In this document: positions 6,341-43,607 of the stretch, in pieces
How the letters are laid out: every line of letters begins with the position of its first letter
Position numbering within the stretch: the stretch's first letter is position 1
NCBI GenBank assembly: GCA_977020255.1
Contig: CDROCS010002813.1
Coordinates: forward strand, 1-64,000
Length of the DNA: 64,000 nucleotides
Direction of reading: 5' to 3'
From: Obrimoposthia wandeli
Lineage: Eukaryota
Translations under genes and position numbers: made by a program
The notes under the pieces: model-generated
Seen by the model: only the letters and a program-made list of their open reading frames with translations
Database searches by the model: none
What the model was told of the DNA's origin: nothing

Positions 6341-7765
6341 ATGAAAAGAAGTCGCGCTCAGAAACCAAGAGTTTCAAAAAAGCAGCAACAGATTAAAAAC
6401 TCCTCATTTGGTTCTAATAATCCAGAATCATTTAATTCTGCACTTAGTTCAAAACGAGCTGGAGCTGGGGGGTGTACTGATTTAAGTAGTTCATATCATG
6501 TTAATCTAAATCCAAGAGTATTTGAGCAGCGAATAAGAGATGCATATGCTCTTTACAAAAATACTTGGGAAGGTAAAAAAATCATCAATATCCCGTTTTT
6601 GATATTTTGCGGAATGGTTGGAACTATGAAGGTTTATCAAAAGAAGATAATCAAGCAATCGTAAATGAAAACATAAGTCTCCATCTGTTAACTAGAATGA
6701 AAGAGGCTATGCGGCTTGAAAGATTAATAGGCGGAGCTGTGATTTTCATGGGAGTTTCTGATGGTGCAACATCTCCTGCAGAGCCTTTGATGCTTAGTAG
6801 AGTTCAAAAACTCTCTCAAATTTTTTAAATACTATTTCAAGACATAGAATCTCAGATGTATCGTATGATGATAATCCACTTTCAAGTTCATACGGTCGCC
6901 CTGATGCATATATGATCAATGGTCAAAAAGTTCATAGTTCACGATTAATAATTTTTGACGGCGATCCTAACTCAATCAAAAGTGATTCTAGTTTGAGTGG
7001 TGATGATGTTAATGATGGATTTGGGGAGTCGGTATTAACTCCAATTTATTATGAAATAATTAGAGCAATTGGAACTCGTCAAGCCGCCTTTCAATTAGTA
7101 AATAAATCGGGTCAGTTTTTCATTTTCATGGAAAAGCGATGCTTGAAGCGACAAAGCAAGGTCAAGTAGCTTTGAGTGAAGTAGAAAAAATGATGGCTGA
7201 ATTGAGCGCGTATCAAGCTGCTATTATTAATTCAGATGCATCAAACCCGGCTTCTATGGAAACTATCTCTCCCAATTTCGCTAGTATTCCTGAATTAGTT
7301 GATAAATTTCTTCAGGTTCTTAGTGCCGCATCAGATATTCCTGCAACTCGCTTTCTTGGCCAAGCCCCTGGAGGGTTGAATGCTACAGGTGAGTCAGATT
7401 TAGAAAATTACTATGGTAGATTAGAATCAGAGCAAGAATTGATTTTAAAACCAAAGCTTGAGCAACTATTGGAAGTGATCGGGCGTTCCGCGATCGGAGA
7501 TTCATTTAATAGTGAATTGGTTTCTGTTACGTTTGATCCGTTATGGTCATTGTCTGAAACAACTCAAGTTGCAAATGATAAAGTTGTTGCAGATAAATAT
7601 GCAGTGTTTGTTACTGCTGGAATGTTAAGTTCTTCAGAAGCTAAACTAGGAGCAGAAAAAGAAGGCGCAATTCCTGATGATATTGCTTTAGATAATCTTG
7701 CTGATGAATCTGACGATGTAGATATTTCAAGTGAAGTTGACAGATTGAAGGGACTGTTACCATGA
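6341..7765 (+). pseudogene. Frameshifted copy of the portal gene
   Basis: Fragments 6341-6664, 6607-6828, 6912-7169 and 7139-7765 join to give the 477-aa ORF at 42174. Confidence 0.9.
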
Positions 7766-8595
7766 TAATTTCATCTGATGATATTGAGAACAATAGGAAG
7801 AATGAAAGAATTTCACAACCCATTCGTCCAAGTCGGGGAATTGAATCAGATTATCGTAATGCATTGTATGATATTACTCGTCTTATCAATTCAAAGACCA
7901 AAGATTTAATATCAATAATTGCTAGTGGCGCAGAACATACTATAATTGCAAATGATATATTAAGATTCATTGAAGATTCAAACGCAGGGATTGCAATTGA
8001 AGCAAATAGAATTGCTACTCAATTTGCTCAACAATCTAGCATTCAGAACAAAGAACGATTTGAATCAATGCTTAGACAGTCTTTGAATGCGGATTTTTTA
8101 ACTGTGATTGATGGCTCAGAAGTAAGCAATGTTTTAAATACTGTTAGAGTCACTAATGTTGGTTTGATTAAAACGATTCCAGACCAACACTGGGGTAAAG
8201 TTCTGCAGGCTGTTAACGATAATTTATCTGGAACATTAGATATGCCGTTAACATCTCGTTTAAAACAGATTTCTGGAATTACAACGCGAAGAGCTAAATT
8301 TATAGCGCGTGACCAGACACAAAAAGCCGTTAGTCAACTGAATCAAGCAAGACAATTAGATACAGGAATAACTGAATACAAATGGTTAACGTCAGAAGAT
8401 GAACGAGTAGTTGGTAATCCTAGTGGTCTTTATCCAAAAGGAAACTCTAAACATATGAATCATTTCAAACGTAATGGAAAAGTATTTAAATGGTCTGAAC
8501 CACCAGGAGATGGACATCCGGGTAATGCAATTAATTGTCGATGTGTAGCTATCCCTGTTATTAATATGGATGAGCTGAATTTACAGGTAATGTAA
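7762..8595 (+). CDS. Minor head / head morphogenesis protein (Mu F, SPP1 gp7-like)
   Basis: RAKFIARDQT, YKWLTSEDERV and HPGNAINCRC motifs; follows the portal. Confidence 0.9.
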   Translation: MIISSDDIENNRKNERISQPIRPSRGIESDYRNALYDITRLINSKTKDLISIIASGAEHTIIANDILRFIEDSNAGIAIEANRIATQFAQQSSIQNKERFESMLRQSLNADFLTVIDGSEVSNVLNTVRVTNVGLIKTIPDQHWGKVLQAVNDNLSGTLDMPLTSRLKQISGITTRRAKFIARDQTQKAVSQLNQARQLDTGITEYKWLTSEDERVVGNPSGLYPKGNSKHMNHFKRNGKVFKWSEPPGDGHPGNAINCRCVAIPVINMDELNLQVM

Positions 8596-9701
8596 TGATA
8601 ACAAGAATTGAGAACAACCAATGGTGCATTGATCCTGATACTGGATTCTTAACCATCAACATAGCTTTACTGAAAGCAGGTGATATGATGTATCACCGTT
8701 CTGAGCTTATAGACTCGCTTCCTGAGTGTATAAAATCAGATGAAATTATTATGAACGTTCCTGAATCTGAGATTAGTTCTCAAGCAAGTTTGATTTCAGC
8801 TCAAGGTTGTCTTGCTGTTGATGGCCACATTTGGCAAGATATCAATACTTCTAGTGATTCAATTGGTCATGTGAAAGGAATTCCATATTTTCAAAATGGT
8901 TATGTTTACGCATCATTAGTTCTGACAAATAAGATTGCCATAGATAAAGTGATCTCTGGTGAGCTAGTTGATGTTTCTAGTGCGTATGATAGTGATGTCA
9001 TTTGGAGTGATGAAACTGGAACTCAATCTGAAATACGATACAATCATATTGCATTACTCCCTGAAGGGAGAGGAAGAGCAGGTAAAACTGTAAGAATTTT
9101 AAACCAGAAGATGGAGTCAAAAATGGAAGTGACGAAAGTTCGCCTTAGTAATGGCGCTATTATTAGTGTGTTGAATGAAGATTCAGGTGCATTAGCGCAA
9201 GCGGATAAAGAGCAATCCGATAAAATTACCAACATGATAGATCCTGCCACATTTCAAGAAACTCTTGATAAATTGGCCGAGGTAAACAATCAAATTACAG
9301 CGCTAACAGAAAGTAAATCTGATTTAGAAGGACAGATTTCCGCATTACGTGATCAACTTGATTCAGCCTTGTCTCCAGAGCAGATTGAAACTGCTGCTGC
9401 AGAGATGGTTGAAAACCAAGATAACGCTGAAAAGATTATGAACTCTAAAGGTCTTAAGCTTGATACTACATTGAAAGGTCAAGAGTTAAAGCGTCACGTT
9501 GTAGCTCAGGTTCGAGTTGCTAACTCGAAACCATTGACTGAAGATGAATTAAAAAATGATTCAATGATTAATGGGATGTTTTCAGTTTATGCGGATGCAA
9601 CGGTTGCTCCTACGGGTCATTCAATTTTTAATAATGGACAGAGAATTAATAACTCCGTAGAAAAAGTGGATATGAAAAAACGTTTATGGGGGGAAAAATA
9701 A
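8595..9701 (+). CDS. Capsid maturation protease/scaffold (DUF2213-like)
   Basis: ELVDVSSAYD and YNHIALLPEGRGRAG motifs; coiled-coil C-terminal half. Confidence 0.85.
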   Translation: MITRIENNQWCIDPDTGFLTINIALLKAGDMMYHRSELIDSLPECIKSDEIIMNVPESEISSQASLISAQGCLAVDGHIWQDINTSSDSIGHVKGIPYFQNGYVYASLVLTNKIAIDKVISGELVDVSSAYDSDVIWSDETGTQSEIRYNHIALLPEGRGRAGKTVRILNQKMESKMEVTKVRLSNGAIISVLNEDSGALAQADKEQSDKITNMIDPATFQETLDKLAEVNNQITALTESKSDLEGQISALRDQLDSALSPEQIETAAAEMVENQDNAEKIMNSKGLKLDTTLKGQELKRHVVAQVRVANSKPLTEDELKNDSMINGMFSVYADATVAPTGHSIFNNGQRINNSVEKVDMKKRLWGEK

Positions 9702-10243
9702 TGGATTTCGTTCAAGCTACGTACACTGATTGTTTTGATCGCGGATTTCCGGGACAAATTTTTAACCCGGCTTCAACTGATGGAAATTCTTCGTTTCATT
9801 ATCCTACTAGTACGCCTGTTTTTATTGGCCGAGCTGTTAAGGGTGTAGCCCTTACTGATGAAAATAATATTGCATCTGGTATTGCTCTTGCTGATGTAGA
9901 TGGAATTACTGAAGCTACAGAAATTGTAGGTATTGTAATTTCTGATAAGCAAGCATCTGTTGATGATGATGGTAATGCATACCTTCCAGCCAATACTATG
10001 GCAACGGTTATGCGTTTTGATGAAAGTGGGTTAATTTATTCTAGAGTCGTCGTTGCTGTTGCGGCAGGTGATTCTGTTTTTGTTGCTACTGCTGCTGTTA
10101 ATGATGCAAATATTGCAGTTGGTGAATTCACTAATGCTGCTGGTACTGGTCTTTTAGATACTACTTTGAAATTCTATAAGGGCGCTGATGCTGGTAAAGC
10201 TTCAGTTATTTCTATGAAAGCTATTGTTCCTGTTGCTCCATAA
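9701..10243 (+). CDS. Head decoration/cement protein
   Basis: Lies between scaffold and major capsid genes. TAATG overlap favours the start at 9701 (MDFVQ). Confidence 0.7.
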   Translation: MDFVQATYTDCFDRGFPGQIFNPASTDGNSSFHYPTSTPVFIGRAVKGVALTDENNIASGIALADVDGITEATEIVGIVISDKQASVDDDGNAYLPANTMATVMRFDESGLIYSRVVVAVAAGDSVFVATAAVNDANIAVGEFTNAAGTGLLDTTLKFYKGADAGKASVISMKAIVPVAP

Positions 10244-10290
10244 ACAGATTATACTTTCTGTAAACTAGACTATTTCTAACAAAAGGAAAT

Positions 10291-11301
10291 ATGATGAGTA
10301 AAAAAATTACTACAGCCATGCGCATTATGAATGCTGGCTATGAGTTAGGAAATGCAACGGATGTAACTAGCTCTTACAATCTAACAGTAGAATCGTTTGA
10401 AGATATCAAATCTGGGTTTATTGAGGCTAAATACCCCGGTTTTCTTTGGAATCAAGTTATTGACGAAGCGGCAATTGATACATCAATTAATGTTGGTGCT
10501 CGCAAAGCTTCTTATCGAGTTCGAGATAAGTCTGGCATGGGTGCTTTTGTTAATACAGTTGGTTCTAATATTCCAACAGTTGGAACTGGGCTTGGAAAAG
10601 TTGAAGTTCCAATTGAACTTGCTGCTGTTTCTGATGTTGTTACTCTTGATGAAGCCCGAGAGGTTTCGTTTGGTCACTCAGTAAATCTAATTACTGATCA
10701 TGGCGAGGTAATGCGTGAGGCTGCAGAGCGTCATGTTGAGCGAACTTTCTTTTTTGGTAGTGATAGCGTTAATTTCCGTGGATTTTTGGATTATCCATTT
10801 ACTCCAGCAACTACTGCATCAACAAAAGCGGCAGGTGGGACTGAGTGGGTTAACGCCACTGGTGATGAAATTGCTTTTGATGTAAATAATGCAATCTCAA
10901 CAATCTGGGTTAATACGCGTCAAATCGCCTTGGCTGGTTCTGTTTATCTTCCATCATCTCAATATGCGCTAATTGCAACTAAGCGTATTAGTGAATCAAC
11001 AGATGGTACGGCTCAAACAGTTATGCAATTCCTTAAGATGAATAACGTATACACTGCTAGAACTGGTATTCCTTTAGATATCTTCCCACTTCATTATCTT
11101 GATGAGCAAGGGGTTGGTGATACTGATCGTATGAAAGTAAAAGTTAAAGACCCTGCAAATGATTGGCTTCCGTTCCCTGAGCTATTTAATGTTTTACCTC
11201 CGCAGTTGGAAGGATTAAACACTCGTTTGTATGCTACATATACATTTGGTTCTTATCATAACCGCTTCCCTCTTGAAGCTGTTTATGTCGATGGTATATA
11301 G
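10291..11301 (+). CDS. Major capsid protein (DUF2184/encapsulin-like HK97 fold)
   Basis: 336 aa; FFFGSDSVNFRGFLDYP motif; position in the head module. Confidence 0.88.
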   Translation: MMSKKITTAMRIMNAGYELGNATDVTSSYNLTVESFEDIKSGFIEAKYPGFLWNQVIDEAAIDTSINVGARKASYRVRDKSGMGAFVNTVGSNIPTVGTGLGKVEVPIELAAVSDVVTLDEAREVSFGHSVNLITDHGEVMREAAERHVERTFFFGSDSVNFRGFLDYPFTPATTASTKAAGGTEWVNATGDEIAFDVNNAISTIWVNTRQIALAGSVYLPSSQYALIATKRISESTDGTAQTVMQFLKMNNVYTARTGIPLDIFPLHYLDEQGVGDTDRMKVKVKDPANDWLPFPELFNVLPPQLEGLNTRLYATYTFGSYHNRFPLEAVYVDGI

Positions 11302-11309
11302 GAGTAATT

Positions 11310-11669
11310 ATGGCTAAGGTTTTTGTTGGAAATACGATGAAGCGAGTATTCATCATTCCATCTGCAGTATCTAAAGATGGTGCGGTTAAAGGTTCTATCT
11401 CAATAAATCCGGGTTGTATTGTTGAGGCTGATAAAGAGCTTATTGATTTACATAAAAAGGAATCTAGAGCTTTTAAAGCTCTAATTTCTGGAAATCATAT
11501 TATGGTGCAATCTAAGATGTTTAATCTTAGTAATGTTATGCAGCGTAATCCTGATTCTAAAAAAGCTCCAATTCAGCTTAGTGTGGATAAAAAAGTTGAA
11601 ATTAAAGGCACTCAAACAATTACTCTTGAATCAAGTTCTGCTCCTGAAGGCACTCAAGGAGGTGAATAA
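11310..11669 (+). CDS. Hypothetical head-associated protein
   Basis: GGAG Shine-Dalgarno; position after the major capsid gene. Confidence 0.7.
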   Translation: MAKVFVGNTMKRVFIIPSAVSKDGAVKGSISINPGCIVEADKELIDLHKKESRAFKALISGNHIMVQSKMFNLSNVMQRNPDSKKAPIQLSVDKKVEIKGTQTITLESSSAPEGTQGGE

Positions 11670-11866
11670 TGTGGGTAACTAATCATACGCGTAAAACAAT
11701 TACCGTTGCCAGCGTAGATCTACCTGTTGATAAGCCTGTTGAAATTGATGAGGCGTCTTTTCTTAATGCAGTTAAGAGAAATGATTCAATTCGACAATTG
11801 GTGTTAAATCGCAAGATATCAGCAGTTAAGACGTTATCGCCTAAAAAAGGAAGGCTTAAAGCATGA
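11669..11866 (+). CDS. Hypothetical protein
   Basis: GGAGG Shine-Dalgarno; TAATG overlap. Confidence 0.7.
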   Translation: MWVTNHTRKTITVASVDLPVDKPVEIDEASFLNAVKRNDSIRQLVLNRKISAVKTLSPKKGRLKA

Positions 11867-12267
11867 ATGCAGATCTAGTGACATTTAAAATATTATTCAA
11901 TGAATTTGATTCTGTTCCAGATGTTAAAATTCAACTGTACATTGATGATGCTAAAGATGCACTAGATAAAAGTGCTTGGGGCTTGTGTTACGACAAAGCG
12001 GTTTTATGGTTGACCGCTCATAACCTCTCAATGAGTATGCAAAGAAATGTTAACTCGTCAGAAGATGAGAACGGTAATATAGAACTTGCTCAAACTGGTG
12101 TGTTAACTAATGCTACTGCTAATGGTCTTACTGTAGGTTTTGCTGCTAGTCCATCAGCATCTAGCGATGGTGGATACTGGTATGCACAATCAACTTACGG
12201 TCAAAGATATTTAGCTTTGATGAAAGAGTGCTTATCACCTGCTCGGATTGTGCGCTGTGGCAATTAG
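11863..12267 (+). CDS. Head-tail adaptor (DUF4054-like)
   Basis: F..LFNEF, LWLTAH and WYAQSTYGQRYL motifs. Confidence 0.85.
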   Translation: MNADLVTFKILFNEFDSVPDVKIQLYIDDAKDALDKSAWGLCYDKAVLWLTAHNLSMSMQRNVNSSEDENGNIELAQTGVLTNATANGLTVGFAASPSASSDGGYWYAQSTYGQRYLALMKECLSPARIVRCGN

Positions 12268-12700
12268 AGTTAGACATACTAACCCAAATTGGCTTACTCA
12301 GTTAATGACGTCGCTTAAGGCGTCTGAGGCTGCTTTAGAAGTTGGGATAGTAAAAGAAAATGCAAGTATTAGCTATCCTACCGGAGAGAGGGTAGTTGAT
12401 ATTGCAGTTCAAAATGAATATGGCCTAGGAGTTCCTGCTCGTCCGGCAATAGCAAATTCATCTGAGACTTTAACCGCTCAATTTAATCAATTTTCTTCTA
12501 AAATGAAAATTGGAGAAACGGTTGAGGTTTTAAATAAATTTGCCCCGATTGCTGTAGGTATAGTTCAGCAGTCAATTACAGATTTACGCGATCCTCCAAA
12601 CTCAGAAGAAACGATAAAAAATAAAGGGTCATCTAATCCATTGATTGATTCTGGACTTTATCGACAATCAATTGATGCAATAGTCAGGGAGGAGAAATAA
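12248..12700 (+). CDS. Neck / tail-completion protein
   Basis: VQNEYG...PARP and PPNS..TIKNKGSSNPLIDSG motifs. Start may be GTG at 12257. Confidence 0.75.
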   Translation: MCAVAIRVRHTNPNWLTQLMTSLKASEAALEVGIVKENASISYPTGERVVDIAVQNEYGLGVPARPAIANSSETLTAQFNQFSSKMKIGETVEVLNKFAPIAVGIVQQSITDLRDPPNSEETIKNKGSSNPLIDSGLYRQSIDAIVREEK

Positions 12701-13180
12701 ATGAAACTTCCCGTAAATTTAGCTAATAATATATTTAAGATAAAAATCTTTGGATATGATGAGCAAGTGTCTAGAGTGAAAGGGAAGACTGAATTTTTAG
12801 TATTTCCGGATAGAATTATTGTTGGAACTATTCAGCCTTCAGGAGACAAATCCGCTTCATTATTTCCGGATGGTCAAATGTCGGATGGTGCAATGATTCT
12901 TCATACTAATTCTCGTGTTTATACGTATAACTCAGCAGAGAGTAATATTCTAGTTCAGAATAATTGGTTTACGTTTGATGATAAGTTTCTTACTTTAGAT
13001 TATGGGATTTGGTGGACAAGCGGAGCTTCATTAGAAATTCGAGATGCAACTATTCAAACTTTTATACGTTATAAAGGTGAAGTATGGAAGCTGACAAAAA
13101 GTCAGAACTGGGAAGATCACATCCAGTCTAATGTAAACAGATACGGATTAGTTAAGTATGTCAATGTCAACGACGACTAA
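12701..13180 (+). CDS. Head-tail joining (stopper-like) protein
   Basis: Position; GTIQP motif. Confidence 0.6.
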   Translation: MKLPVNLANNIFKIKIFGYDEQVSRVKGKTEFLVFPDRIIVGTIQPSGDKSASLFPDGQMSDGAMILHTNSRVYTYNSAESNILVQNNWFTFDDKFLTLDYGIWWTSGASLEIRDATIQTFIRYKGEVWKLTKSQNWEDHIQSNVNRYGLVKYVNVNDD

Positions 13181-13739
13181 TAAGCTAGAAGAGGTTCTGT
13201 ATGATTGGGCGTTTAGTCTCATACCTTCTAGAGTTGTTATTATGAGTAATCAAGTGGATGGGAATTCACCGAATGAACCTTACGTATCTATTAGGTTAAC
13301 TCAGTCTCCAACTTCACAGAATCCAGAAGTTACTCTTTCTGATAACGGTGAACTGGAAACGATATCTCAAAGATGCTTATTTACGGTCAATGTAGAATGC
13401 GTTGGTGATGAAGCATTTCAAGATGCAAAATCTGCCTGTATTTTATTAGCATCATCGTTATATTCAGCTAATAGATATTTAGACTTATGGGCCGTTTCTG
13501 GGTTGGGTGGCGTAGCTACTGGACCTCAATCATTAACTACAGCAACGTTAGCTACAAATAGATCTAGATGGCAATTTCAATACACGCTGTATGCTGTTAT
13601 AGATAATATTTTTACGGGTCAATATTTCGATAACTTGGAATTAAAAGTTATAGATGGAGATACTGACACAATTCTTTTAGATGTTGAGATTGACGGGAAA
13701 AATCCGCCAAAAGAAGGAAATTGCAATGGCAACGAATGA
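13158..13739 (+). CDS. Tail terminator / neck protein
   Basis: Directly before the sheath gene; PNEPYVSIR motif. Confidence 0.65.
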   Translation: MSMSTTTNKLEEVLYDWAFSLIPSRVVIMSNQVDGNSPNEPYVSIRLTQSPTSQNPEVTLSDNGELETISQRCLFTVNVECVGDEAFQDAKSACILLASSLYSANRYLDLWAVSGLGGVATGPQSLTTATLATNRSRWQFQYTLYAVIDNIFTGQYFDNLELKVIDGDTDTILLDVEIDGKNPPKEGNCNGNE

Positions 13740-15246: not shown

Positions 15247-15259
15247 TTAAGGGGCCATT

Positions 15260-17772: not shown

Positions 17773-17784
17773 GGATGGTTTAAC

Positions 17785-31836: not shown

Positions 31837-31838
31837 TG

Positions 31839-32147: not shown

Positions 32148-32148
32148 A

Positions 32149-32912: not shown

Positions 32913-32959
32913 TTTTACTCCTAATTTACCGATTGTGAGTTCTGTTTACTTAAATAAGT

Positions 32960-32983
32960 ATTTACGTATTTACGTATTTACGT
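32960..32983. repeat. Downstream centromere repeats, 3 x ATTTACGT
   Basis: Overlaps the 3' end of the adaptor gene. Confidence 0.8.
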
Positions 32984-33802: not shown

Positions 33803-33882
33803 ATTTACGTATTTACGTATTTACGTATTTACGTATTTACGTATTTACGTATTTACGTATTTACGTATTTACGTATTTACGT
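33803..33882. repeat. Centromere/operator, 10 x ATTTACGT
   Basis: Perfect tandem 8-mers between the promoter and the parA start. Confidence 0.85.
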
Positions 33883-33887
33883 ATTAA

Positions 33888-34860: not shown

Positions 34861-34988
34861 GATAAAGCCTCTCTTTTAATAAGATTAGCTCTTTGAGAAT
34901 TGGTCAAGCAATTTGAATTAATTGCAAATTTTCTTAATGTTTCTGGAAGTGCTTCACAAATAAGCACTCGAAATGTAAACTGTGTCAT
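34857..34988 (-). CDS. 43-aa ORF coupled to the recombinase (MTQFTFRVLICEALPETLRKF...REALS)
   Basis: AGGATG Shine-Dalgarno; its stop overlaps the recombinase start (ATGA). Confidence 0.55.
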   Translation of the reverse strand: MTQFTFRVLICEALPETLRKFAINSNCLTNSQRANLIKREALS

Positions 34989-35056
34989 ACTTCATCCTAG
35001 GTTATTAGGTTTTGAATAATCCCTAATCAATGTTAGTAGCATTGGTTAGGGGTGAT

Positions 35057-35257
35057 TTAACTTTCAATACCCCCACTATACTTCATGTCATGAAGTGTTT
35101 CAAGGGTTTTTAAATGATGCTCTACAAATTTTGGGATTTTTAATATTCCTGAATTGTATTTTTCATGAGCGCTCATTGATATTCCTAGCAAATCATTCCA
35201 ATCTTTAACTTTTAATCCTAATTTTTTTCTTAATTCTTTATATTTATCTACTGTCAT
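35057..35257 (-). CDS. Small XRE-family HTH regulator
   Basis: KELRKKLGL....NDLLGIS.SAHEKY.SG pattern. Confidence 0.75.
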   Translation of the reverse strand: MTVDKYKELRKKLGLKVKDWNDLLGISMSAHEKYNSGILKIPKFVEHHLKTLETLHDMKYSGGIES

Positions 35258-35279: not shown

Positions 35280-36260
35280 TTAGATTGATTTTAATCTAAA
35301 TAGAACTTCATTCGCTGTTAGTCCATCATTCCAGTTTAAATTATGATGTTCAGCTTCATCTTTAGTTAGATAACGATTAGCTTCGGTAAAAAATAAAGTA
35401 TCATTTATATTTTTGAATGGCTTTACTTCTATCTTAACAATTGAATTTGTATTCAATGCTTTATCAATTATTTTATCTTTTTTATTTATTTCTTTATTAT
35501 CATATAGATAACTTATTTTAACTTTATAAGCTTTACGACATTTCCTCTCTATTATTTCCATGTTAATTTTAGTGAATTCTGTTTTTTCAATAATTTTCTT
35601 TGCTGCTCTTTTGAAAAAAGAATTATTAAATTCAGTGAATAATTCATATGATTTATGTTTATCGACTGCAAGTGATTCTTTAAATTCATCAACAGTTATA
35701 GTTTTATCAACTACAAAGCCAGAACTGATCCATTCTCGTAATATTAGATATAACTTACCAGAATTTCCATCTGGCAATTGCATGGCACTTAATAGAAATT
35801 GCCCGGTAAAATCCCCGGTCAAACTAGATATTAATGGTTCCATTTCTTTTGCAAATTTAACGTTTACAAATCCGTGACCTTTTGAATAACCAGTTCCATT
35901 TTCGGCAATAGTAAATGGTGCTATCCAATCACTAGGAAGTTCCGGGTTTTTCTTTTTTAATAATCCCTGATCGGCCTCAAGAACGTAACCACGCAGCCCT
36001 CTAACACCTTCAACTATTTGCCGATATGCCGCAGAATAATCAATTTCACATAATTCAGCATAATTTTTCACTGTTATAGTAAATATATTATCTGAGTCAA
36101 ATTTTATAAGAACGTTATTTTTTGAAGAATCTCTTTCAAGTTGAGCTAAACACATAAAAAATAATCTTTTTGATGGCAGTCCCATCCCAATTAAAGCTGG
36201 TCTTGCATCGTTACGTGTATATATTTTCTTAGCCATTTTCAATATTTCCGATCGATTCAT
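35280..36260 (-). CDS. repB: Plasmid replication initiator, Rep_3 (RepE/pi-like)
   Basis: KRLFFMCLAQL, AYRQI, VNVKF..EMEPLI, GKLYLILREW and TVDEFKESL; adjacent iterons. Confidence 0.9.
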   Translation of the reverse strand: MNRSEILKMAKKIYTRNDARPALIGMGLPSKRLFFMCLAQLERDSSKNNVLIKFDSDNIFTITVKNYAELCEIDYSAAYRQIVEGVRGLRGYVLEADQGLLKKKNPELPSDWIAPFTIAENGTGYSKGHGFVNVKFAKEMEPLISSLTGDFTGQFLLSAMQLPDGNSGKLYLILREWISSGFVVDKTITVDEFKESLAVDKHKSYELFTEFNNSFFKRAAKKIIEKTEFTKINMEIIERKCRKAYKVKISYLYDNKEINKKDKIIDKALNTNSIVKIEVKPFKNINDTLFFTEANRYLTKDEAEHHNLNWNDGLTANEVLFRLKSI

Positions 36261-36453: not shown

Positions 36454-36790
36454 TGCTAAAAATCTTTTGGATTCATATGTTTACATTACCCCCCAATAGA
36501 ATAATAGATTAATATAAATAATAAAAATAAGGAGTCACTAGCTTTCAGGCTGTGGATAAGTTTCATATTGATAACTTTCGCAAGCTCAAGATTACCAACA
36601 ATTACTAAATGATTTATTTGATGCTTATTGATTTCGCTCCGCGTCAAATTTTTTTATTTTTAATAGATGTGATCAACATATTAACAATATCAGAATTAAA
36701 TATGTATCGTACTCGTTATATGTATTTTTTTGATAAATATAATTAATAATAATGCAAAGTAGTAACTATTTTATCTTTAGAGAGTTAAGT
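36454..36790. other. Remainder of the replication origin: DnaA box and AT-rich tract
   Basis: Perfect DnaA box TGTGGATAA at 36551-36559; long non-coding A/T runs. Confidence 0.7.
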
Positions 36791-36864
36791 GCCATTTGAG
36801 CTGCATGTACAAAGGGTGGGGGATCTATCGAGTTATATTGACTTTTAATTTAATGAGGGTTTTT

Positions 36865-37503
36865 TTATTTTTCTATAAAATACGCAGAAATCGACCGGGT
36901 TGTATTTGTATGTTTATCAAACGCTTCTACATTTCTTGTTTCTATTTTTCCTATACTCTTTTTTAGATTGTATATATTTACTGCTAACCTCTTGATTCTA
37001 TAGAATAGTATTGCATCTATTGAGGTTAAATATTCATTCTCATTAAGTAAGTCTTCAAGTTCATGTCTTCTTCCTATTTCAGTGTTAAGTTTATCGTTTT
37101 TAATTGATGATCGCCTAGGGCAAATAATTTTTATGGTGTATTCAATTTCAGTTTCTTTATTAAAACCCTCCAAATGTGATTGATATCTTGAATAAATTAC
37201 TCCTTTTTTATTCCCATTTATTTTTACTGTTTTCTTAAATACATTTTGTCTCTTCTGTAACCTAGCCATCATTTGAGGTGATCTTGTTATCAAAAGCCGA
37301 TACGCTAGATCCTCCATCGTGACATAATTAACTATATTGAATGCTAATTCAGAGCGATCCTTTTCGTTCATTTTGTATTGTCTCATTTGCCGATAAACAT
37401 AATCCCATTGCTCTAGTATCTCTTGGGTGTCGTGAGTCGATTTAACAATGTGAGTTTGCATTATGTAATCAATTCTCTCTGGTATTAGGGCCATTTGTAT
37501 CAC
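36865..37503 (-). CDS. Putative regulator with a C-terminal winged HTH (HTH_39-like)
   Basis: LTSIDA...IKRLAVNIYNLK...IET...AYF pattern. Confidence 0.6.
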   Translation of the reverse strand: MIQMALIPERIDYIMQTHIVKSTHDTQEILEQWDYVYRQMRQYKMNEKDRSELAFNIVNYVTMEDLAYRLLITRSPQMMARLQKRQNVFKKTVKINGNKKGVIYSRYQSHLEGFNKETEIEYTIKIICPRRSSIKNDKLNTEIGRRHELEDLLNENEYLTSIDAILFYRIKRLAVNIYNLKKSIGKIETRNVEAFDKHTNTTRSISAYFIEK

Positions 37504-37598
37504 CGTTTGTGTATATGAATTGAGCGCTAATTATAATTCATATACGATGATTTAATAAACGTTATTGCATTGATTTTTAATATTTTTTAGGTTCTTTT

Positions 37599-38624
37599 AT
37601 GGCAAAAATAACAGCAGTTAATAATGATAAAAATACAAAGGTTTCTTATAGGGTTCACTTTGTTAAAAGTGGAACTTCTAGACTAAGGATATTTAAATAT
37701 TACCCAGAAGCGTGCAGGTTTTTTTATTACTCAGAACTAGATGCTTTTAGTGATTTAACTCAAGAGGGGTTCTTAAAAAGGAAAGATTTTACTGTTAGGA
37801 AGTTACTGCAGTTTTTTTTAGGTTATCAGTATGACAGATTTGAGTTAAATCAAATTTCAGAGCAAACATACAAACAAGTTGAGCTTAGATTCAATAATCT
37901 AGAAGAAGGTTTTTTAAATTTAATATCATTCAAAGTATCAAGAAAGCAGATAGAAAAGTACGTTCAGGATCATGCTATGGTTTGGGTTCGAGCTGCTTAT
38001 GCGTTGTTAAATAGGCATTCAGAAAATAATTTCAATCCATGTCCAAAAATTAAAAAACGGGTATATCGTCCCCCCACAATTCCAAGTAAAGGTGATATTG
38101 ATAAATTAATATCTCTTGCTGTTGAGCCAAGAGCAAAGATGTTTTTATATTTATGTATTGCATGTGGGTTGCGTGTCAGTGAGGTTATGGCATTACGATG
38201 GGATAGAGTTGATGATGAGAAAATCATAATAGATCATCACACGGTTAACGATAAGATATTGCGTGGTCATAAATCTGGACATTACCGGGTGATTAAAATT
38301 TGCTCTCAATTTTCGGTGCTATGTAAATCGCTTGATAGAAACTCAGAGTTTTTAATCTACAATCAAAGTAACCCCAAGGGGTTTCTTTCTAGTAAATCGT
38401 TCATAGCTAATCAGATTAAGAAAATTTATAGGGAGGCTGGTGTCACTTGTACGGTTCATGATTTACGACATTATGCAATATCAACATGGATTCGTGAGGG
38501 TAGGGATATCATTCAGGTGCAGCATATGGCTGGTCATACTGATGTGGGTACAACGTTAAAAATCTATGGTCATTTGCTGAATGAGCCTGCTCCTATTGTT
38601 TCTAGGGCTTGGAATTGGCAATAA
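37599..38624 (+). CDS. Tyrosine integrase
   Basis: CGLRVSEV.ALRW, HDLRH and AGHTDVGTTLKIYGH (complete R-K-H-R-H-Y set); possible arm-binding N-terminal domain. Confidence 0.92.
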   Translation: MAKITAVNNDKNTKVSYRVHFVKSGTSRLRIFKYYPEACRFFYYSELDAFSDLTQEGFLKRKDFTVRKLLQFFLGYQYDRFELNQISEQTYKQVELRFNNLEEGFLNLISFKVSRKQIEKYVQDHAMVWVRAAYALLNRHSENNFNPCPKIKKRVYRPPTIPSKGDIDKLISLAVEPRAKMFLYLCIACGLRVSEVMALRWDRVDDEKIIIDHHTVNDKILRGHKSGHYRVIKICSQFSVLCKSLDRNSEFLIYNQSNPKGFLSSKSFIANQIKKIYREAGVTCTVHDLRHYAISTWIREGRDIIQVQHMAGHTDVGTTLKIYGHLLNEPAPIVSRAWNWQ

Positions 38625-38800: not shown

Positions 38801-39388
38801 ATGGCTAGATATAAAAAAAGTTACGTGTTAGAAGCCACTCTCTATGTTGCTACGACTGGCAGAAAAACAGGATTAGCTCTTGCTCGATACTTCAAAGTAT
38901 CAGAGCAAACAATATACAACTGGAAGAAGTCACATCCTGACTTTAAGAACGCAGTTGATAATGCCAGAGACCAATTAAATGTTATTGTTAACAGCGCAAT
39001 ATTAAAAAATGTAACAAAGAATAAAATTACAAAAGGAAGTGGTCCAGATGGACCAACAAAAACAATTACTCCTCCTCAAGCTGCAGATATGACTGTTGCA
39101 CTTAAAGCCGGGATAGGGGGCTTGCGTTCTATAGAAGAAAAAGAGCGCCGCGAGTTTATTAAGCGCGTAATTGCTCAGAAAATAAGAGGGGATCTAACTT
39201 GTATCGAGGCAATGCAGAAAATTGAAGGTGAGGGTTATAACGCTCCGAAGTCATTAGAGTTAGAAGCTAAGATTGAATTGAATAAATCTTCAGGTGATTC
39301 ATTCCTAAATAGCATACTCACTGATGAACAAAAAGAACAAAAGAACCGTTTCATGGAACTGTTAACTAAGGAAATTGAAGATGACTAG
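38801..39388 (+). CDS. terS: Terminase small subunit
   Basis: N-terminal HTH (LARYFKVSEQTIYNWKK.HPDF); overlaps terL. Confidence 0.8.
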   Translation: MARYKKSYVLEATLYVATTGRKTGLALARYFKVSEQTIYNWKKSHPDFKNAVDNARDQLNVIVNSAILKNVTKNKITKGSGPDGPTKTITPPQAADMTVALKAGIGGLRSIEEKERREFIKRVIAQKIRGDLTCIEAMQKIEGEGYNAPKSLELEAKIELNKSSGDSFLNSILTDEQKEQKNRFMELLTKEIEDD

Positions 39389-40886
39389 TGTTGCAACACT
39401 TAAAAATAAAACTAGTAATGATGAAATTTATCTTCTTAGTATCAAGCAGAAGTGTGAAGACTCGTTTAAATTTTTTGTGAAATACTTCTTCAAGATTCAG
39501 TATGGGAAAGGGTTTGGGTGGTCTTGGCATCATCAGCAGATAGCCGATGTTTTGATGGATGTTTATCATGGAAGAAAGACACATGTAATTATTAATATAC
39601 CACCAAGATATAGCAAAACTGAGTTAATCGTTAAGATGTTCAATGCATGGACATTTGCCAAAAATCCAAAGTGTTACAGTCTTCACTTATCATATTCCAA
39701 AACATTGGCGTTGGGTAACTCAGCAAAAATAATTGATATAATCAAAACTTCTGAATATCAGGAACTATGGCCAGCAACAGATATACCAAAAGATAAATCC
39801 GCAAAAGAACAATGGGAAACAGTATCAGGGGGGTCATTTAAAGCTGGACCAGCGGGGGGTTCTGTCACTGGTTTTGGTGCCGGGAGCCTAGAAGAATTAA
39901 GTGCTGATGGTAAGTTCACTTACTATGGTGCCATTTTTATTGATGATCCGTTAAAGCCTGATGATGCAAGATTTGAGATTGTCAGAACAGCAACAAACGA
40001 CAGATGGGATGAAACAATAAAGAACAGACGGAACAGTCCGTCAACTCCAGTTGTTGTTGTTATGCAGCGATTGCATGAAGAAGATTTTGCCGCAATGCTT
40101 CTAGATGATAAGGAGTTCAAGTGGCATCAATTAGTTTTACCTGCCATTCTAAATGAGAATACCGAACAAGAAGAGGCTCTTTGGCCAGCAATGCATACAT
40201 TAGAAATGTTGCATGAAATGAAGAAAAAAAACAAATACGTCTTCAGTGGTCAGTATCAACAATCTCCATCACCTAAAGGCGGAGGAAAGATTAAAGAGGA
40301 ATGGTGGTCTCGATATAAATCAAAAGATGAAATTATGCAACGCTGTAATTTTTTCTTTATGACTGCAGATACGGCATACACATCAGATAATGCAAATGAT
40401 CCATCTGTTATTCAACTTTGGGGAGCTGAATCAGCAACTAGATTGTATTTAGTTGATCAGATTAAAGGGTTTTGGGAATTTCCAGAATTATTAACTAACG
40501 TCACTAAATTTTGGAATAAGTACACCGTTAACGTCAATCACAGACCTCCAGCTAACTTGTATATTGAGTCAAAAGCGTCAGGCCTATCATTAGTCCAAAC
40601 ATTAAAAAGAAATGGGATACCTACTAAAGGTTGGAATCCTAAGCATTATAAATTCCCAATTGATAAAGTTGGCCGAGTTAACGAGGCTTCATGGAATATT
40701 ATGTCCGGTGATATTTGGATACCAATAGATGCATATTGGGTTCAAGGGTTCATCGATGAGTGGTCTAAATTCACAAATAATGATACTCATAAAGAAGATG
40801 ATCAGATTGATGGAGGTACAATGGCGATTTCAATTTGGAGGAAGTTTGGCGGAGGAACTACCAATCTCCAATTGCATGAAAAATGA
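39375..40886 (+). CDS. terL: Terminase large subunit
   Basis: IPPRYSKTE Walker A, IFIDDP Walker B, MQRLHEED, YQQSP, TADTA and DDQID. Confidence 0.95.
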   Translation: MKMTSVATLKNKTSNDEIYLLSIKQKCEDSFKFFVKYFFKIQYGKGFGWSWHHQQIADVLMDVYHGRKTHVIINIPPRYSKTELIVKMFNAWTFAKNPKCYSLHLSYSKTLALGNSAKIIDIIKTSEYQELWPATDIPKDKSAKEQWETVSGGSFKAGPAGGSVTGFGAGSLEELSADGKFTYYGAIFIDDPLKPDDARFEIVRTATNDRWDETIKNRRNSPSTPVVVVMQRLHEEDFAAMLLDDKEFKWHQLVLPAILNENTEQEEALWPAMHTLEMLHEMKKKNKYVFSGQYQQSPSPKGGGKIKEEWWSRYKSKDEIMQRCNFFFMTADTAYTSDNANDPSVIQLWGAESATRLYLVDQIKGFWEFPELLTNVTKFWNKYTVNVNHRPPANLYIESKASGLSLVQTLKRNGIPTKGWNPKHYKFPIDKVGRVNEASWNIMSGDIWIPIDAYWVQGFIDEWSKFTNNDTHKEDDQIDGGTMAISIWRKFGGGTTNLQLHEK

Positions 40887-40934
40887 TGGGTTTAATTTTT
40901 AGAAAAATCACTTCATAAAAAAGGAAAAAGACAA

Positions 40935-41204
40935 ATGTGGATACACAGTAAAAATAATGTAAGCGTTAATTTATCTAATGTGATTACTATAAATATAGAC
41001 GGATGTTGCTTGATTTTTGGGAGTGCTGTAACTGACAATGTTAATATTGAATGGAAGTTTAAATCTGAGGAGGAAGCTAAAATTGCACTAGTAGAAATTC
41101 ATACTGGTTCATTCTCTAGGGAGATAATGATTCCCATAAACATGACAAAAAGAAGTCCGTTCCAACCCCCAATGCCAAAACCCCCAAGATCAATAATTAA
41201 ATAA
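40935..41204 (+). CDS. Hypothetical protein
   Basis: AAGGA Shine-Dalgarno; 89 aa. Confidence 0.75.
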   Translation: MWIHSKNNVSVNLSNVITINIDGCCLIFGSAVTDNVNIEWKFKSEEEAKIALVEIHTGSFSREIMIPINMTKRSPFQPPMPKPPRSIIK

Positions 41205-41264
41205 GATATTATAAGTTTAATTTCCAGAAAACAGTTACATACTTATGTAAACTAGGAGAAACAC

Positions 41265-41726
41265 ATGAATAAGACACAAAGAAATGCATTATATTTTGTA
41301 GGCAAGTACAGAGATTTAACTAAGGAGAGTAAAGAACCTATAGATTTATTTAATAGCCTCCGATCGCTTTCGTATATTGCAAATCAGATTGCAGAAAAAT
41401 CAGCGTGTGGTGTATTTGATAAAAGTGAGCATTCTGATTATAACCAAACTATTAATAGAAATTTTGGTGACATTAATACAACTGAATCTAACTCTGTATC
41501 TTTTTCTGTATTTTTTGCACGTTGGGAGTATTCGAGTAAAGAAATCAACAGTTGTCTTATTGAGTCTGAATCAGCTCAAAAAGCATGGGATGAACTCACT
41601 GAAACACTAATAGGAACTTATGCAGTAATTACTCATTTTAAGTGTGTAGAACCGAATATTAAAAAATATATGTGTTCTAACGCTGAACTAGCTGAAACTG
41701 AACACAACAATAAATTAGGGGGTTGA
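41265..41726 (+). CDS. Hypothetical protein
   Basis: AGGAG Shine-Dalgarno; 153 aa. Confidence 0.8.
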   Translation: MNKTQRNALYFVGKYRDLTKESKEPIDLFNSLRSLSYIANQIAEKSACGVFDKSEHSDYNQTINRNFGDINTTESNSVSFSVFFARWEYSSKEINSCLIESESAQKAWDELTETLIGTYAVITHFKCVEPNIKKYMCSNAELAETEHNNKLGG

Positions 41727-41727
41727 A

Positions 41728-42117
41728 ATGGATCGATTGATTGTAAACCGCACCGAGCAAGAAGATTGCACGTTGGGCGTAGTAAATTATAAAGAGTTTC
41801 GCTGTTTTAGCTTGGAGTTACCGAACAAGGACAATCAAGTAAACGTTTCTTGTATCCCTTATGGGATTTATGAATGCGAAAAATACTATAGCGACAAATA
41901 CGGAACAACTTGCTTTAGAGTGCTCAATGTCGTTGGGCGTTCTGCTATTGCAGGGCATTATGGTAATTATACGAGCGATATACTAGGCTGTTTAATTTTT
42001 GGCGATAGCATTGCGGATATTAATAATGATGGTGTGCCAGATGTAACAAATTCAAGAGTGACGCTATCTAAGCTTATTGATTTATTACCTGATAGGTTTC
42101 AAATGATTATTAAATAG
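41728..42117 (+). CDS. DUF5675-like protein
   Basis: SLELP, SCIPYG.Y and HYGN...ILGC motifs. Confidence 0.75.
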   Translation: MDRLIVNRTEQEDCTLGVVNYKEFRCFSLELPNKDNQVNVSCIPYGIYECEKYYSDKYGTTCFRVLNVVGRSAIAGHYGNYTSDILGCLIFGDSIADINNDGVPDVTNSRVTLSKLIDLLPDRFQMIIK

Positions 42118-42173
42118 CTCTAGTTTGTTTGGTTAATTGACTACAGAACTATATGATTTATTAAGGATTTCAA

Positions 42174-43607
42174 ATGAAAAGAAGTCGCGCTCAGAAACCA
42201 AGAGTTTCAAAAAAGAAACAGCAACAGATTAAAAACTCCTCATTTGGTTCTAATAATCCAGAATCATTTAATTCTGCACTTAGTTCAAAACGAGCTGGAG
42301 CTGGGGGGTGTACTGATTTAAGTAGTTCATATCATGTTAATCTAAATCCAAGAGTATTTGAGCAGCGAATAAGAGATGCATATGCTCTTTACAAAAATAC
42401 TTGGGAAGGTAAAAAAATCATCAATATCCCCGTTTTTGATATTTTGCGGAATGGTTGGAACTATGAAGGTTTATCAAAAGAAGATAATCAAGCAATCGTA
42501 AATGAAAACATAAGTCTCCATCTGTTAACTAGAATGAAAGAGGCTATGCGGCTTGAAAGATTAATAGGCGGAGCTGTGATTTTCATGGGAGTTTCTGATG
42601 GTGCAACATCTCCTGCAGAGCCTTTGATGCTTAGTAGAGTTCAAAAAAACTCTCTCAAATTTTTAAATACTATTTCAAGACATAGAATCTCAGATGTATC
42701 GTATGATGATAATCCACTTTCAAGTTCATACGGTCGCCCTGATGCATATATGATCAATGGTCAAAAAGTTCATAGTTCACGATTAATAATTTTTGACGGC
42801 GATCCTTTAACTCAATCAAAAAGTGATTCTAGTTTGAGTGGTGATGATGTTAATGATGGATTTGGGGAGTCGGTATTAACTCCAATTTATTATGAAATAA
42901 TTAGAGCAATTGGAACTCGTCAAGCCGCCTTTCAATTAGTAAATAAATCGGGTCAGTTTTTCATTTTCATGGAAAAAGCGATGCTTGAAGCGACAAAGCA
43001 AGGTCAAGTAGCTTTGAGTGAAGTAGAAAAAATGATGGCTGAATTGAGCGCGTATCAAGCTGCTATTATTAATTCAGATGCATCAAACCCGGCTTCTATG
43101 GAAACTATCTCTCCCAATTTCGCTAGTATTCCTGAATTAGTTGATAAATTTCTTCAGGTTCTTAGTGCCGCATCAGATATTCCTGCAACTCGCTTTCTTG
43201 GCCAAGCCCCTGGAGGGTTGAATGCTACAGGTGAGTCAGATTTAGAAAATTACTATGGTAGATTAGAATCAGAGCAAGAATTGATTTTAAAACCAAAGCT
43301 TGAGCAACTATTGGAAGTGATCGGGCGTTCCGCGATCGGAGATTCATTTAATAGTGAATTGGTTTCTGTTACGTTTGATCCGTTATGGTCATTGTCTGAA
43401 ACAACTCAAGTTGCAAATGATAAAGTTGTTGCAGATAAATATGCAGTGTTTGTTACTGCTGGAATGTTAAGTTCTTCAGAAGCTAAACTAGGAGCAGAAA
43501 AAGAAGGCGCAATTCCTGATGATATTGCTTTAGATAATCTTGCTGATGAATCTGACGATGTAGATATTTCAAGTGAAGTTGACAGATTGAAGGGACTGTT
43601 ACCATGA
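42174..43607 (+). CDS. Portal protein (DUF1073-like)
   Basis: RLIGGAVI, VHSSRLI, SAASDIPATRFLGQAPGGLNATGESDLENYY motifs. Confidence 0.9.
   Translation: MKRSRAQKPRVSKKKQQQIKNSSFGSNNPESFNSALSSKRAGAGGCTDLSSSYHVNLNPRVFEQRIRDAYALYKNTWEGKKIINIPVFDILRNGWNYEGLSKEDNQAIVNENISLHLLTRMKEAMRLERLIGGAVIFMGVSDGATSPAEPLMLSRVQKNSLKFLNTISRHRISDVSYDDNPLSSSYGRPDAYMINGQKVHSSRLIIFDGDPLTQSKSDSSLSGDDVNDGFGESVLTPIYYEIIRAIGTRQAAFQLVNKSGQFFIFMEKAMLEATKQGQVALSEVEKMMAELSAYQAAIINSDASNPASMETISPNFASIPELVDKFLQVLSAASDIPATRFLGQAPGGLNATGESDLENYYGRLESEQELILKPKLEQLLEVIGRSAIGDSFNSELVSVTFDPLWSLSETTQVANDKVVADKYAVFVTAGMLSSSEAKLGAEKEGAIPDDIALDNLADESDDVDISSEVDRLKGLLP

What the first reader, a model, noticed from the sequence alone, without database searches (positions are those of the whole stretch)
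7762..43603. Compact myovirus phage-plasmid that appears to rely on an iteron Rep_3 replicon
Seen: an intact virion and lysis gene set joined to Rep_3, five iterons, a DnaA box and type Ib par. I recognise no phage O/P-type initiator, helicase, primase or polymerase. Established: P1 uses separate plasmid and lytic replicons, and iteron replicons are normally held at low copy number by handcuffing. Inference: lytic amplification must come from deregulating this single replicon or from an unrecognised protein. The element may represent an uncharacterised phage-plasmid group.
Basis: partly seen in the sequence, partly recalled or inferred. Interest (0 to 1): 0.8.

Follow-up and report, generated by a model that had tools for sequence, protein, structure and literature searches.

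The report
Phage-plasmid with one visible replicon
A complete 36-kb bacterial virus genome that also looks like a plasmid and shows only a plasmid-type replication start; it is a distant, stripped-down relative of a loosely known group that includes the plague bacterium's cryptic plasmid pTP33, and a simple system for asking how such viruses amplify their DNA.

Summary
Confirmed: 7762-43603 is one 35,842-bp circle (the window reads it 1.8 times; a second assembly closes it without differences over the 19.9 kb laid). It carries an unbroken myovirus virion and lysis set, a Rep_3 gene, five exact 22-bp iterons, a DnaA box and type Ib par. No O/P pair, RepL, primase, helicase, polymerase or RecE/RecT was found. 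New here: the Rep is of the R6K pi type, there is no second iteron array, and the element is not an orphan. It shares Rep, a tyrosine recombinase in front of terS, a serine resolvase, a tandem winged-helix protein and gene order with Y. pestis pTP33 and Erwinia, Providencia, Sodalis and Arsenophonus phage-plasmids, at about 30% identity. pTP33 and two Erwinia elements also show one initiator, so that trait is not unique; but all ten plasmid-type relatives examined carry RecE/RecT, which this element lacks, having an extra tyrosine recombinase. Best reading (0.55): one pi-type origin serves both cycles, with recombinases making packaging substrates. Rivals: the winged-helix protein is a hidden initiator (0.2); no independent virion production (0.2). 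No virions, host or copy number shown. The scan's earlier notes showed no such finding.

The parts
7762..43603 (.). One full unit of the circular genome, 35,842 bp
7762..13739 (+). Head and neck genes: MuF, protease/scaffold DUF2213, cement, major capsid (10291-11301), adaptor DUF4054, neck, tail terminator
13681..24431 (+). Contractile tail: sheath DUF3383, tube, chaperones, tape measure, Dit-like, plug, hub, spike, wedges, baseplate J, DUF2612, three short fibre-region genes
   Evidence: fibre hits weak
24476..25135 (-). Glycosyltransferase family 25 moron, in the slot where relatives hold an acyltransferase or glycosyltransferases
25562..26170 (+). Serine resolvase/invertase, 42% to pTP33's over 150 aa
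26651..28281 (+). Lysis: holin candidate (inferred), lysozyme, Rz and Rz1 spanins, 88-aa membrane protein
28341..32912 (-). Early accessory genes, 12 ORFs of 58-249 aa, including a 3'-5' exonuclease (32343-32912), DUF1281, DUF7352 and a PadR/MarR-like protein (30289-30618)
32958..32986 (.). 8-bp tandem array, 3.6 copies, at the end of parB (centromere part, inferred)
32962..33776 (-). Type Ib partition pair: ParA (33147-33776) and RHH ParB (32962-33150)
33803..33885 (.). 8-bp tandem array, 10.4 copies, upstream of parA (centromere/operator, inferred)
33976..34860 (-). Tyrosine recombinase A, 294 aa; homologues on small satellite-like circles; not in the relatives examined
34857..34988 (-). 43-aa ORF overlapping the start of recombinase A by four bases; homologue behind a related Rep on an Enterovibrio contig
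35019..35053 (+). Hairpin that folds better on the + (antisense) strand
35057..35257 (-). 66-aa helix-turn-helix protein behind rep; repressor or copy-control candidate
   Evidence: weak hits
35280..36260 (-). Rep_3 initiator of the R6K pi type, 326 aa
36331..36453 (.). Iterons: five exact 22-bp copies and a part copy
36454..36800 (.). A+T-rich stretches on both sides of a perfect DnaA box (36551-36559)
36865..37503 (-). 212-aa tandem winged-helix protein (ECs1377-like), shared with pTP33 and the Erwinia elements
37504..37598 (.). Divergent intergenic region with an 11-12-bp inverted repeat; likely early/late switch region (inferred)
37599..38624 (+). Tyrosine recombinase B, 341 aa, catalytic residues intact, directly before terS; marker of the lineage
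38801..43607 (+). terS, terL (39375-40886), two hypothetical genes, DUF5675, portal (42174-43607)

Best explanation
A temperate myovirus that lives as a low-copy plasmid and uses one origin for both cycles. Shown: the gene set, the circle, a pi-type Rep with its iterons, DnaA box and par. Inferred: as a prophage it replicates by theta mode from the iterons with host DnaA, helicase, primase and polymerase, is segregated by ParA/ParB, and is kept monomeric by the serine resolvase or recombinase A. On induction, transcription of the leftward operon that rep heads, or a shift of Rep from dimer to monomer, releases the origin from handcuffing; having no second iteron array makes that release easier than in P1 or F. 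Multimers for the terminase and recircularisation after infection are supplied by the late recombinase B, by recombinase A (standing in for the RecE/RecT of the relatives, as Cre does in P1) and by host RecA. The winged-helix proteins regulate this switch.
For: No second initiator found by library scans or by profiles of relatives' initiators; all unassigned ORFs are under 250 aa and lack NTPase or HUH motifs; non-coding gaps over 120 nt are only five, none over 604 nt. Rep profile's best solved match is R6K pi, E 3.9e-34 against 2e-5 for RepE; a review states that the pir-116 form lacks inhibition and raises copy number and that more monomer dissociates paired iterons, and monomers and proteases undo RK2 handcuffs (abstract). 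No further iteron copy at 5 mismatches. Iterons resemble those beside close Rep homologues (15 of 22, p 0.002; 13 of 22, p 0.03). pTP33 (Rep_3) and two Erwinia elements (RepL) also show one initiator each, at the head of the early operon. Reading frames unbroken and a 95%-identical relative of the portal region in another study's sample.
Against: No virions, induction, copy number or host shown for this element, and I found no report of virions for pTP33, the Erwinia elements or phiSG1 in the passages read (listings 22, 90, 126). Where tested in another system the plasmid Rep was dispensable for lytic growth (mycobacteriophage Miko). Six of ten plasmid-type relatives do carry two or more initiators, the four Arsenophonus ones an O-like/DnaC-like pair. 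No lox-like site was identified for either tyrosine recombinase. No CI-like repressor, Q-like antiterminator or exact LexA box was found, so the switch is unassigned. Iteron likeness to R6K is not significant (12 of 22, p 0.14). Headful packaging is inferred from the terminase family, not shown.
Confidence: 0.55

Rival explanations
1. The 212-aa tandem winged-helix protein (36865-37503) is an unrecognised second initiator or a dedicated replication activator for the lytic cycle, playing the part of P1 RepL.
For: Confident model (pLDDT 90) with winged-helix matches to both halves (residues about 39-110 and 145-212; best Z 7.0), the architecture of iteron initiators; gene lies next to the origin. 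Present in 4 of 4 elements with one initiator (window, pTP33, pETR006-a, pETR003-a) and in 0 of 6 with two or more. Among 50,697 phage records only Erwinia LS-2018a holds it.
Against: The pattern rests on about five independent lineages (two with, three without; p about 0.1 by my count). Homologues sit on 521 plasmid records, 487 conjugative; in the two opened they lie near transfer or exclusion genes, not rep. No iteron-like repeats in or beside the gene in five loci. Fold matches are to generic regulators; RepE rows have E 0.18 or worse.
Confidence: 0.2
2. A plasmidised or helper-dependent prophage: maintained by Rep/par, with virion genes expressed rarely, as particles with little amplification, or only with help from another phage.
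For: No recognisable repressor, antiterminator, RecE/RecT or lytic initiator; fibre genes short with weak hits and no fibre chaperone hit; pTP33 is described only as phage-plasmid-like or plasmidised.
Against: All virion and lysis frames intact, 93% coding, no insertion sequences among the family hits; a diverged relative keeps the portal region with substitutions and no gaps.
Confidence: 0.2
3. An integrating prophage caught as an excised circle, with recombinase A or B as integrase and the replicon secondary.
For: Two tyrosine recombinases with catalytic residues; recombinase B also occurs in Yersinia phage YP3, which has excisionase, CI, Q, primase and helicase.
Against: Full par system and iteron origin; the X1 contigs form a closed circle; the matches found in the own assembly all lie on contig C2813; YP3 holds a second recombinase match beside recombinase B, which sits before the terminase.
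Confidence: 0.05

Closest known systems
Yersinia pestis pTP33 (NZ_CP045261) and Erwinia tracheiphila pETR003-a / pETR006-a / phage LS-2018a
   Same: 32-36-kb circles; same myovirus gene order; recombinase B before terS; serine recombinase; short ParA with small partner; 212-aa winged-helix protein; surface-modifying moron after the tail genes (pTP33, pETR006-a); one initiator each; pTP33's Rep is the best plasmid-database hit (40%).
   Different: Mean identity about 30%, wGRR-like 0.08-0.12; they carry RecE/RecT and lack recombinase A; the Erwinia elements use RepL; lysis genes lie before recombinase B, not after the tail; terL not detectably close to pTP33's; pTP33 is 50% G+C against 35%.
Providencia rettgeri FDAARGOS 1450 plasmid unnamed2; Sodalis phiSG1; Arsenophonus phage-plasmids (pArsFIN11, paNv_UK8, paPv8)
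   Same: Recombinase B-terS-terL block, plasmid Rep, partition genes; same head and tail order in Providencia and Arsenophonus.
   Different: Two or more initiators (Rep plus RepL; O-like/DnaC-like pair in Arsenophonus), RecE/RecT, no 212-aa protein; phiSG1 has P22-like virion genes; Arsenophonus uses ParM.
Plasmid R6K gamma replicon (pi, IncX)
   Same: Rep 35.5% identical over 228 aligned residues; 22-bp iterons upstream of rep; DnaA boxes nearby.
   Different: Five against seven iterons; iteron sequence not significantly alike; conjugative plasmid without phage genes.
Phage P1 (recalled: RepA/oriR with incA, RepL/oriL, Cre/lox, type Ia par)
   Same: Myovirus kept as a plasmid by an iteron Rep; a tyrosine recombinase of its own.
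   Different: No RepL, no second iteron array, type Ib par, a third of the size, no lox-like site identified.
Klebsiella phages of the KpV79/IME346 kind and Vibrio phage CP-T1
   Same: Closest terL (46%); capsid family at 24-31%.
   Different: Rep and recombinase B searches do not hit them; 44-50 kb.

Membership tests
Phage-plasmid (general definition) | Virion, packaging and lysis genes | tested here: met
Phage-plasmid (general definition) | Plasmid replication initiator and partition system | tested here: met
Phage-plasmid (general definition) | Extrachromosomal circle | tested here: met
   an excised or packaged form cannot be told from a resident plasmid
Phage-plasmid (general definition) | Makes infectious virions and replicates as a plasmid in a host | not testable with these tools
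   no culture, host unknown
pTP33 / LS-2018a / phiSG1 lineage (informal) | Tyrosine recombinase B directly before terS-terL | tested here: met
   seen in 8 of 8 plasmid records opened out of 27 hits
pTP33 / LS-2018a / phiSG1 lineage (informal) | DUF1073 portal-MuF-DUF2213-capsid-DUF4054-DUF3383-DUF2612 order with serine recombinase | tested here: met
pTP33 / LS-2018a / phiSG1 lineage (informal) | RecE/RecT early operon (10 of 10 plasmid-type relatives) | tested here: not met
pTP33 / LS-2018a / phiSG1 lineage (informal) | Close whole-genome relatedness | tested here: not met
   wGRR-like 0.03-0.12; so a distant relative, not a member in the narrow sense
P1-like phage-plasmids | RepL lytic replicon and second iteron array (recalled) | tested here: not met
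   no second array; no RepL hit in Pfam or PHROG scans; a P1 RepL profile as such was not run
Ten typed groups (AB_1, P1_1, P1_2, N15, SSU5_pHCM2, pMT1, pCAV, pSLy3, pKpn, cp32) | Type-specific protein profiles of tyPPing | not testable with these tools
   list read; best Rep and capsid hits are not named as these groups
R6K pi-type Rep_3 iteron replicon | Rep3_N and Rep3_C domains closest to pi; 22-bp iterons; DnaA box | tested here: met
R6K pi-type Rep_3 iteron replicon | Iteron sequence like R6K's | tested here: inconclusive
   12 of 22, p 0.14
R6K pi-type Rep_3 iteron replicon | Autonomous replication and dimer-based control | not testable with these tools
   needs cloning
Type Ib partition | Short Walker-A ParA, RHH ParB, flanking short repeats | tested here: met
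ECs1377 family (NF052300) | Score at or above the curated cut-off of 190 bits | tested here: not met
   123 bits, E 8e-36: homologue, not member

The most novel reading that the evidence does not exclude
A working tailed phage whose only origin is a pi-type iteron replicon, switched to runaway replication by a phage-coded tandem winged-helix protein, and which has replaced RecE/RecT by site-specific recombination: the late recombinase in front of terS builds multimers for packaging and a satellite-derived recombinase recircularises. That would be a third way of running a phage-plasmid beside P1 (two replicons) and N15 (one primase-helicase Rep), and would explain replication in the pTP33 lineage.
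Probability: 0.25. Interest if true: 0.78.

Novelty: new variant of a known kind. Interest (0 to 1): 0.5.

Why it matters
How phage-plasmids without a lytic replicon amplify their DNA is not settled in the papers I read. This circle is the most reduced case among twelve elements compared: one pi-type Rep, no RepL, no O/P pair, no RecE/RecT. Its 1.8-kb replicon and three or four candidate regulators can be tested in laboratory strains. It also extends a lineage so far described from insect- and plant-associated Enterobacterales, which includes pTP33 (now of interest in plague history), to a low-G+C element whose Rep is closest to those of Vibrionaceae and Shewanella, and points to two unstudied lineage markers: the recombinase before terS and the tandem winged-helix protein.

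Tried and rejected
Close relatives: IMG/VR scans with Rep, capsid, Rep alignment and terL found none; with recombinase B one Erwinia-like contig; metagenomes gave 3 loci, two Erwinia-like and one weak; GTDB gave 4 Rep loci without the window's virion genes (one TMP hit at E 5e-4). These pattern scans are insensitive. Word search for homologues of the 212-aa protein found none; the full HMMER search found 23. Single-sequence fold of the 181-aa early protein failed (pLDDT 33), so it and the 197-, 153- and 110-aa ORFs have no structural test. Complex prediction of Rep with the 212-aa protein gave no answer. Flp/2-micron-type amplification: no long dispersed inverted repeats, longest 18 bp in A+T-rich coding DNA. 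A 10-mer seen six times against 0-1 in five simulations was picked after the fact, five of the six lie in coding DNA: dropped. No dif-like site (recalled motifs), no exact LexA box (0, expected 0.62), promoter counts below chance (68 against 90), no Rfam family at gathering score, no tRNA, no defence hit beyond the exonuclease among 20 proteins. Half-iterons for R6K-like alpha/beta origins: only six hits at two mismatches. Rep tree (quick method, unfinished careful search): the window, pTP33 and Providencia Reps fall in one 32-row set but are not shown to be one clade. The initiator in L027, first noted as a third type, is a distant RepL (E 6.5e-10). Helper-embedded satellite integrases: no link seen. 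Run X3 covers only scraps of the control region, which shows nothing at depth 3. Host not found: the assembly holds 17 full-length DnaA matches and no other contig matched the element; the 16.6-kb DNA search of the structural region was not scored. The contig is about 2.1 units long, which could reflect multimers or the assembler; untested.


Full report
What the window is. Positions 1-28136 match 35792-64000 at 97.5%, with indels crowding at the two ends and near-identity over 5001-20000. The window is the first 64 kb of contig C2813 (matches run to 75,650) in a 1.35-Gb, 6,912-contig assembly that also holds many bacterial contigs (17 full-length DnaA matches). The contig is a 35,842-bp circle read about 2.1 times; 7762-43603 is one clean unit, 35.3% G+C, 93% coding. 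In run X1, probably the source sample, three contigs (32,405, 2,503 and 874 nt, depth 34-41) cover 24000-43900 with no other letters, break only at the repeat arrays, and close the circle through 15,941 further letters. X1 also holds 0.99 of the sampled words of 8595-17772. Run X3, another sample and study, has a 9,972-nt contig with 101 substitutions and no gaps over 41720-43897, about 95%, and 0.26 of the structural-region words.

Of 59 proteins scanned, the head, neck, contractile-tail, baseplate, terminase, portal, endolysin and spanin genes have PHROG or Pfam hits; fibre hits are weak and the holin is inferred. Rep (35280-36260) passes Rep3_N and Rep3_C. Five exact 22-bp iterons and a part copy lie 70 nt upstream, then an A+T-rich stretch, a perfect DnaA box at 36551 and a second A+T-rich stretch. 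ParA passes NF041546, its 62-aa partner is a ribbon-helix-helix protein, and 8-bp arrays flank the pair: type Ib. No O/P, DnaC, RepL, primase, helicase, polymerase, RecE, RecT, Q or CI was found by library scans or by profiles and single sequences from relatives run over all six frames (best E 0.059). The only Walker A motifs are in ParA, the protease and baseplate J.

(a) The Rep is of the R6K pi type: its family profile hits pi at E 3.9e-34 and RepE at 2e-5; direct identity to pi is 35.5% over 228 residues. The nearest Reps (63-69%) include Aliivibrio salmonicida and Ca. Photodesmus; the four GTDB loci found carry none of the virion genes. The iterons resemble those beside two close Reps (15 and 13 of 22; p 0.002 and 0.03) but not significantly R6K's (12 of 22; p 0.14). 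There is no second iteron array. (b) Three recombinases: serine (25562-26170), tyrosine A (33976-34860) and tyrosine B (37599-38624). (c) A 212-aa protein beside the origin folds with confidence (pLDDT 90) and matches winged helices in both halves at middling Z; it is an ECs1377 homologue under the cut-off.

Relatives. The best Rep hits among 72,556 plasmids are Y. pestis pTP33 (40%) and a 40.8-kb Providencia rettgeri plasmid (45% over 74%); both are whole myovirus genomes with the same gene order. Recombinase B finds 27 plasmid records (Arsenophonus 19, Yersinia 4, Erwinia 2, Providencia 1, Sodalis 1) and 8 phage records, among them LS-2018a, phiSG1 and YP3. In all 8 plasmid records opened it stands before terS-terL, as do both copies in phiSG1; its catalytic R-K-H-R-H-Y set is invariant in 8 sequences. 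As it also occurs in YP3, which has primase, helicase, CI and Q, it travels with packaging, not with the plasmid state. Relatedness is low: 18 of 59 proteins hit pTP33, mean identity 32%, my wGRR-like score 0.12. TerL is closest (46%) to Klebsiella myophages and Vibrio CP-T1.

Replication genes across 12 elements (phiSG1 searched over 50 of 52 kb, the IMG/VR contig over 14 of 34 kb). One initiator: window and pTP33 (pi-type Rep), pETR006-a and pETR003-a (RepL, Pfam PF05732). Two or more: Providencia and phiSG1 (Rep plus RepL) and four Arsenophonus elements (Rep, RepL, O-like and DnaC-like). RecE and RecT: 10 of 10 plasmid-type relatives, not the window or YP3. The 212-aa protein: 4 of 4 with one initiator, 0 of 6 with more. 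These are about five independent lineages, so the pattern is a lead only; the protein also occurs on 521 plasmid records, 487 conjugative, near transfer or exclusion genes in the two opened, with no iteron-like repeats at the gene. In pTP33 and the Erwinia elements Rep_3 and RepL fill the same slot at the head of the early operon; in the window rep likewise heads the leftward run rep, HTH, 43-aa ORF, recombinase A, parA, parB, exonuclease, early genes. Recombinase A has 8 plasmid hits and no phage hit; the two opened are 8.6-8.7-kb circles with a capsid gene, satellite-like. It is preceded by a 43-aa ORF that overlaps its start and by a hairpin that folds better on the antisense strand (-27 against -17.8 kcal/mol), which suggests post-transcriptional control (inference).

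How it most likely works (0.55). Plasmid state: Rep and host DnaA fire the iteron origin, ParA/ParB segregate, a resolvase keeps monomers; the glycosyltransferase moron, in the slot where relatives keep acyl- or glycosyltransferases, may alter the host surface (inference). Lytic state: the same origin is released. This is established as possible for iteron replicons: the pi variant pir-116 lacks inhibition and raises copy number, and a higher monomer-to-dimer ratio dissociates paired iterons (PMC6312765, passages); monomers and proteases undo RK2 handcuffs (PMC5397158, abstract). That a phage does this is not shown. The terminase (TIGR01630) is taken to be headful (recalled family trait); multimers and recircularisation would then need recombination, which relatives can get from RecE/RecT and this element from recombinases A and B or host RecA, as P1 uses Cre (recalled). 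No target site was identified. Rivals: hidden initiator (0.2), plasmidised or helper-dependent element (0.2), integrating prophage (0.05). Against the main reading, Miko's RepA is dispensable for lytic growth (PMC7157519, passages).

What is known. A 2026 preprint calls pTP33 phage-plasmid-like or plasmidised, with homologues in Erwinia LS-2018a, Serratia, Xenorhabdus and phiSG1 (10.64898/2026.10.03.756212; abstract, passages, section 10); the passages do not treat lytic replication. Pfeifer et al. place phiSG1 in the loose F116 community as suspected, not proven (PMC7969092, passages); its supplementary tables, which may list pTP33 and the Arsenophonus elements, could not be read. The ten typed groups do not include this lineage by name (PMC12977533, passages). 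Small circular phage-plasmids with proven infectivity exist in marine hosts: Vibrio TG34 (PMC13230959, passages) and a 42-kb Tritonibacter element with parAB and a P4-family primase (10.1101/2022.11.02.514943, passages); I could not compare TG34's genes. N15's single RepA is recalled. PMC11652158, PMC12090721 and PMC10111431 were seen as passages and did not change the reading. Searches for a single-iteron-replicon phage-plasmid, for a recombinase before terS and for ECs1377 (listings only, open-licence library) showed no paper on this mechanism. The scan's own notes held nothing alike.

Verdict. A real, complete, apparently intact phage-plasmid genome; a distant and more reduced relative of the pTP33 lineage, with no close described relative. 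One visible initiator is a lineage trait rather than a first case; lacking RecE/RecT as well, with an extra recombinase, is what sets it apart. Mechanism untested. New variant of a known kind; interest 0.5.

Noticed in passing
window 32149-32171 and 32335-32357: Exact 23-bp direct repeat spanning the ends of two neighbouring early genes and the next ribosome-binding sites, like cassette joints of a shuffled early region.
   Followed up: partly
window 34857-35053; L021 2273-2480: A 43-aa ORF with a similar leader and an upstream hairpin also follows a related Rep on an Enterovibrio contig (40% identity), there without recombinase A.
   Followed up: partly
window 30626-30664 and 26566-26599: Strong hairpins inside the early operon (before the PadR-like gene) and before the lysis genes (z -7.3 and -5.1), though no antiterminator gene was recognised.
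   Followed up: partly
window 26180-26446: 88-aa ORF after the serine recombinase ends in a motif like the C-terminus of MuF head proteins (phrog_4728, E 0.01).
   Followed up: no
L001 33644-33968 and 1-368: pTP33's gene for the tandem winged-helix protein (215 aa) crosses the start of the record and is missing from the PLSDB gene table.
   Followed up: yes
L025, L026; NZ_CP110875.1: Small 8.6-8.7-kb circles filed as plasmids carry a major capsid gene and recombinase A homologue; a 34.3-kb Enterobacter record has four matches, as a tetramer would.
   Followed up: partly
L051 18650-22421: An Arsenophonus plasmid carries four RepL genes in tandem before RecE/RecT.
   Followed up: no
CP013974.1 (Erwinia phage LS-2018a, 59,759 nt): Two matches each for recombinase B and the 212-aa protein suggest that this record too is an over-circularised genome of about 32 kb.
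   Followed up: no
window unit 7762-43603: GATC (87 against 155 expected), GTAC (31 against 66) and CATG (80 against 129) are under-represented.
   Followed up: no
window 16044-16328: ORF overlapping the tail chaperone in another frame, with a T-run near the overlap, as for a programmed frameshift.
   Followed up: no
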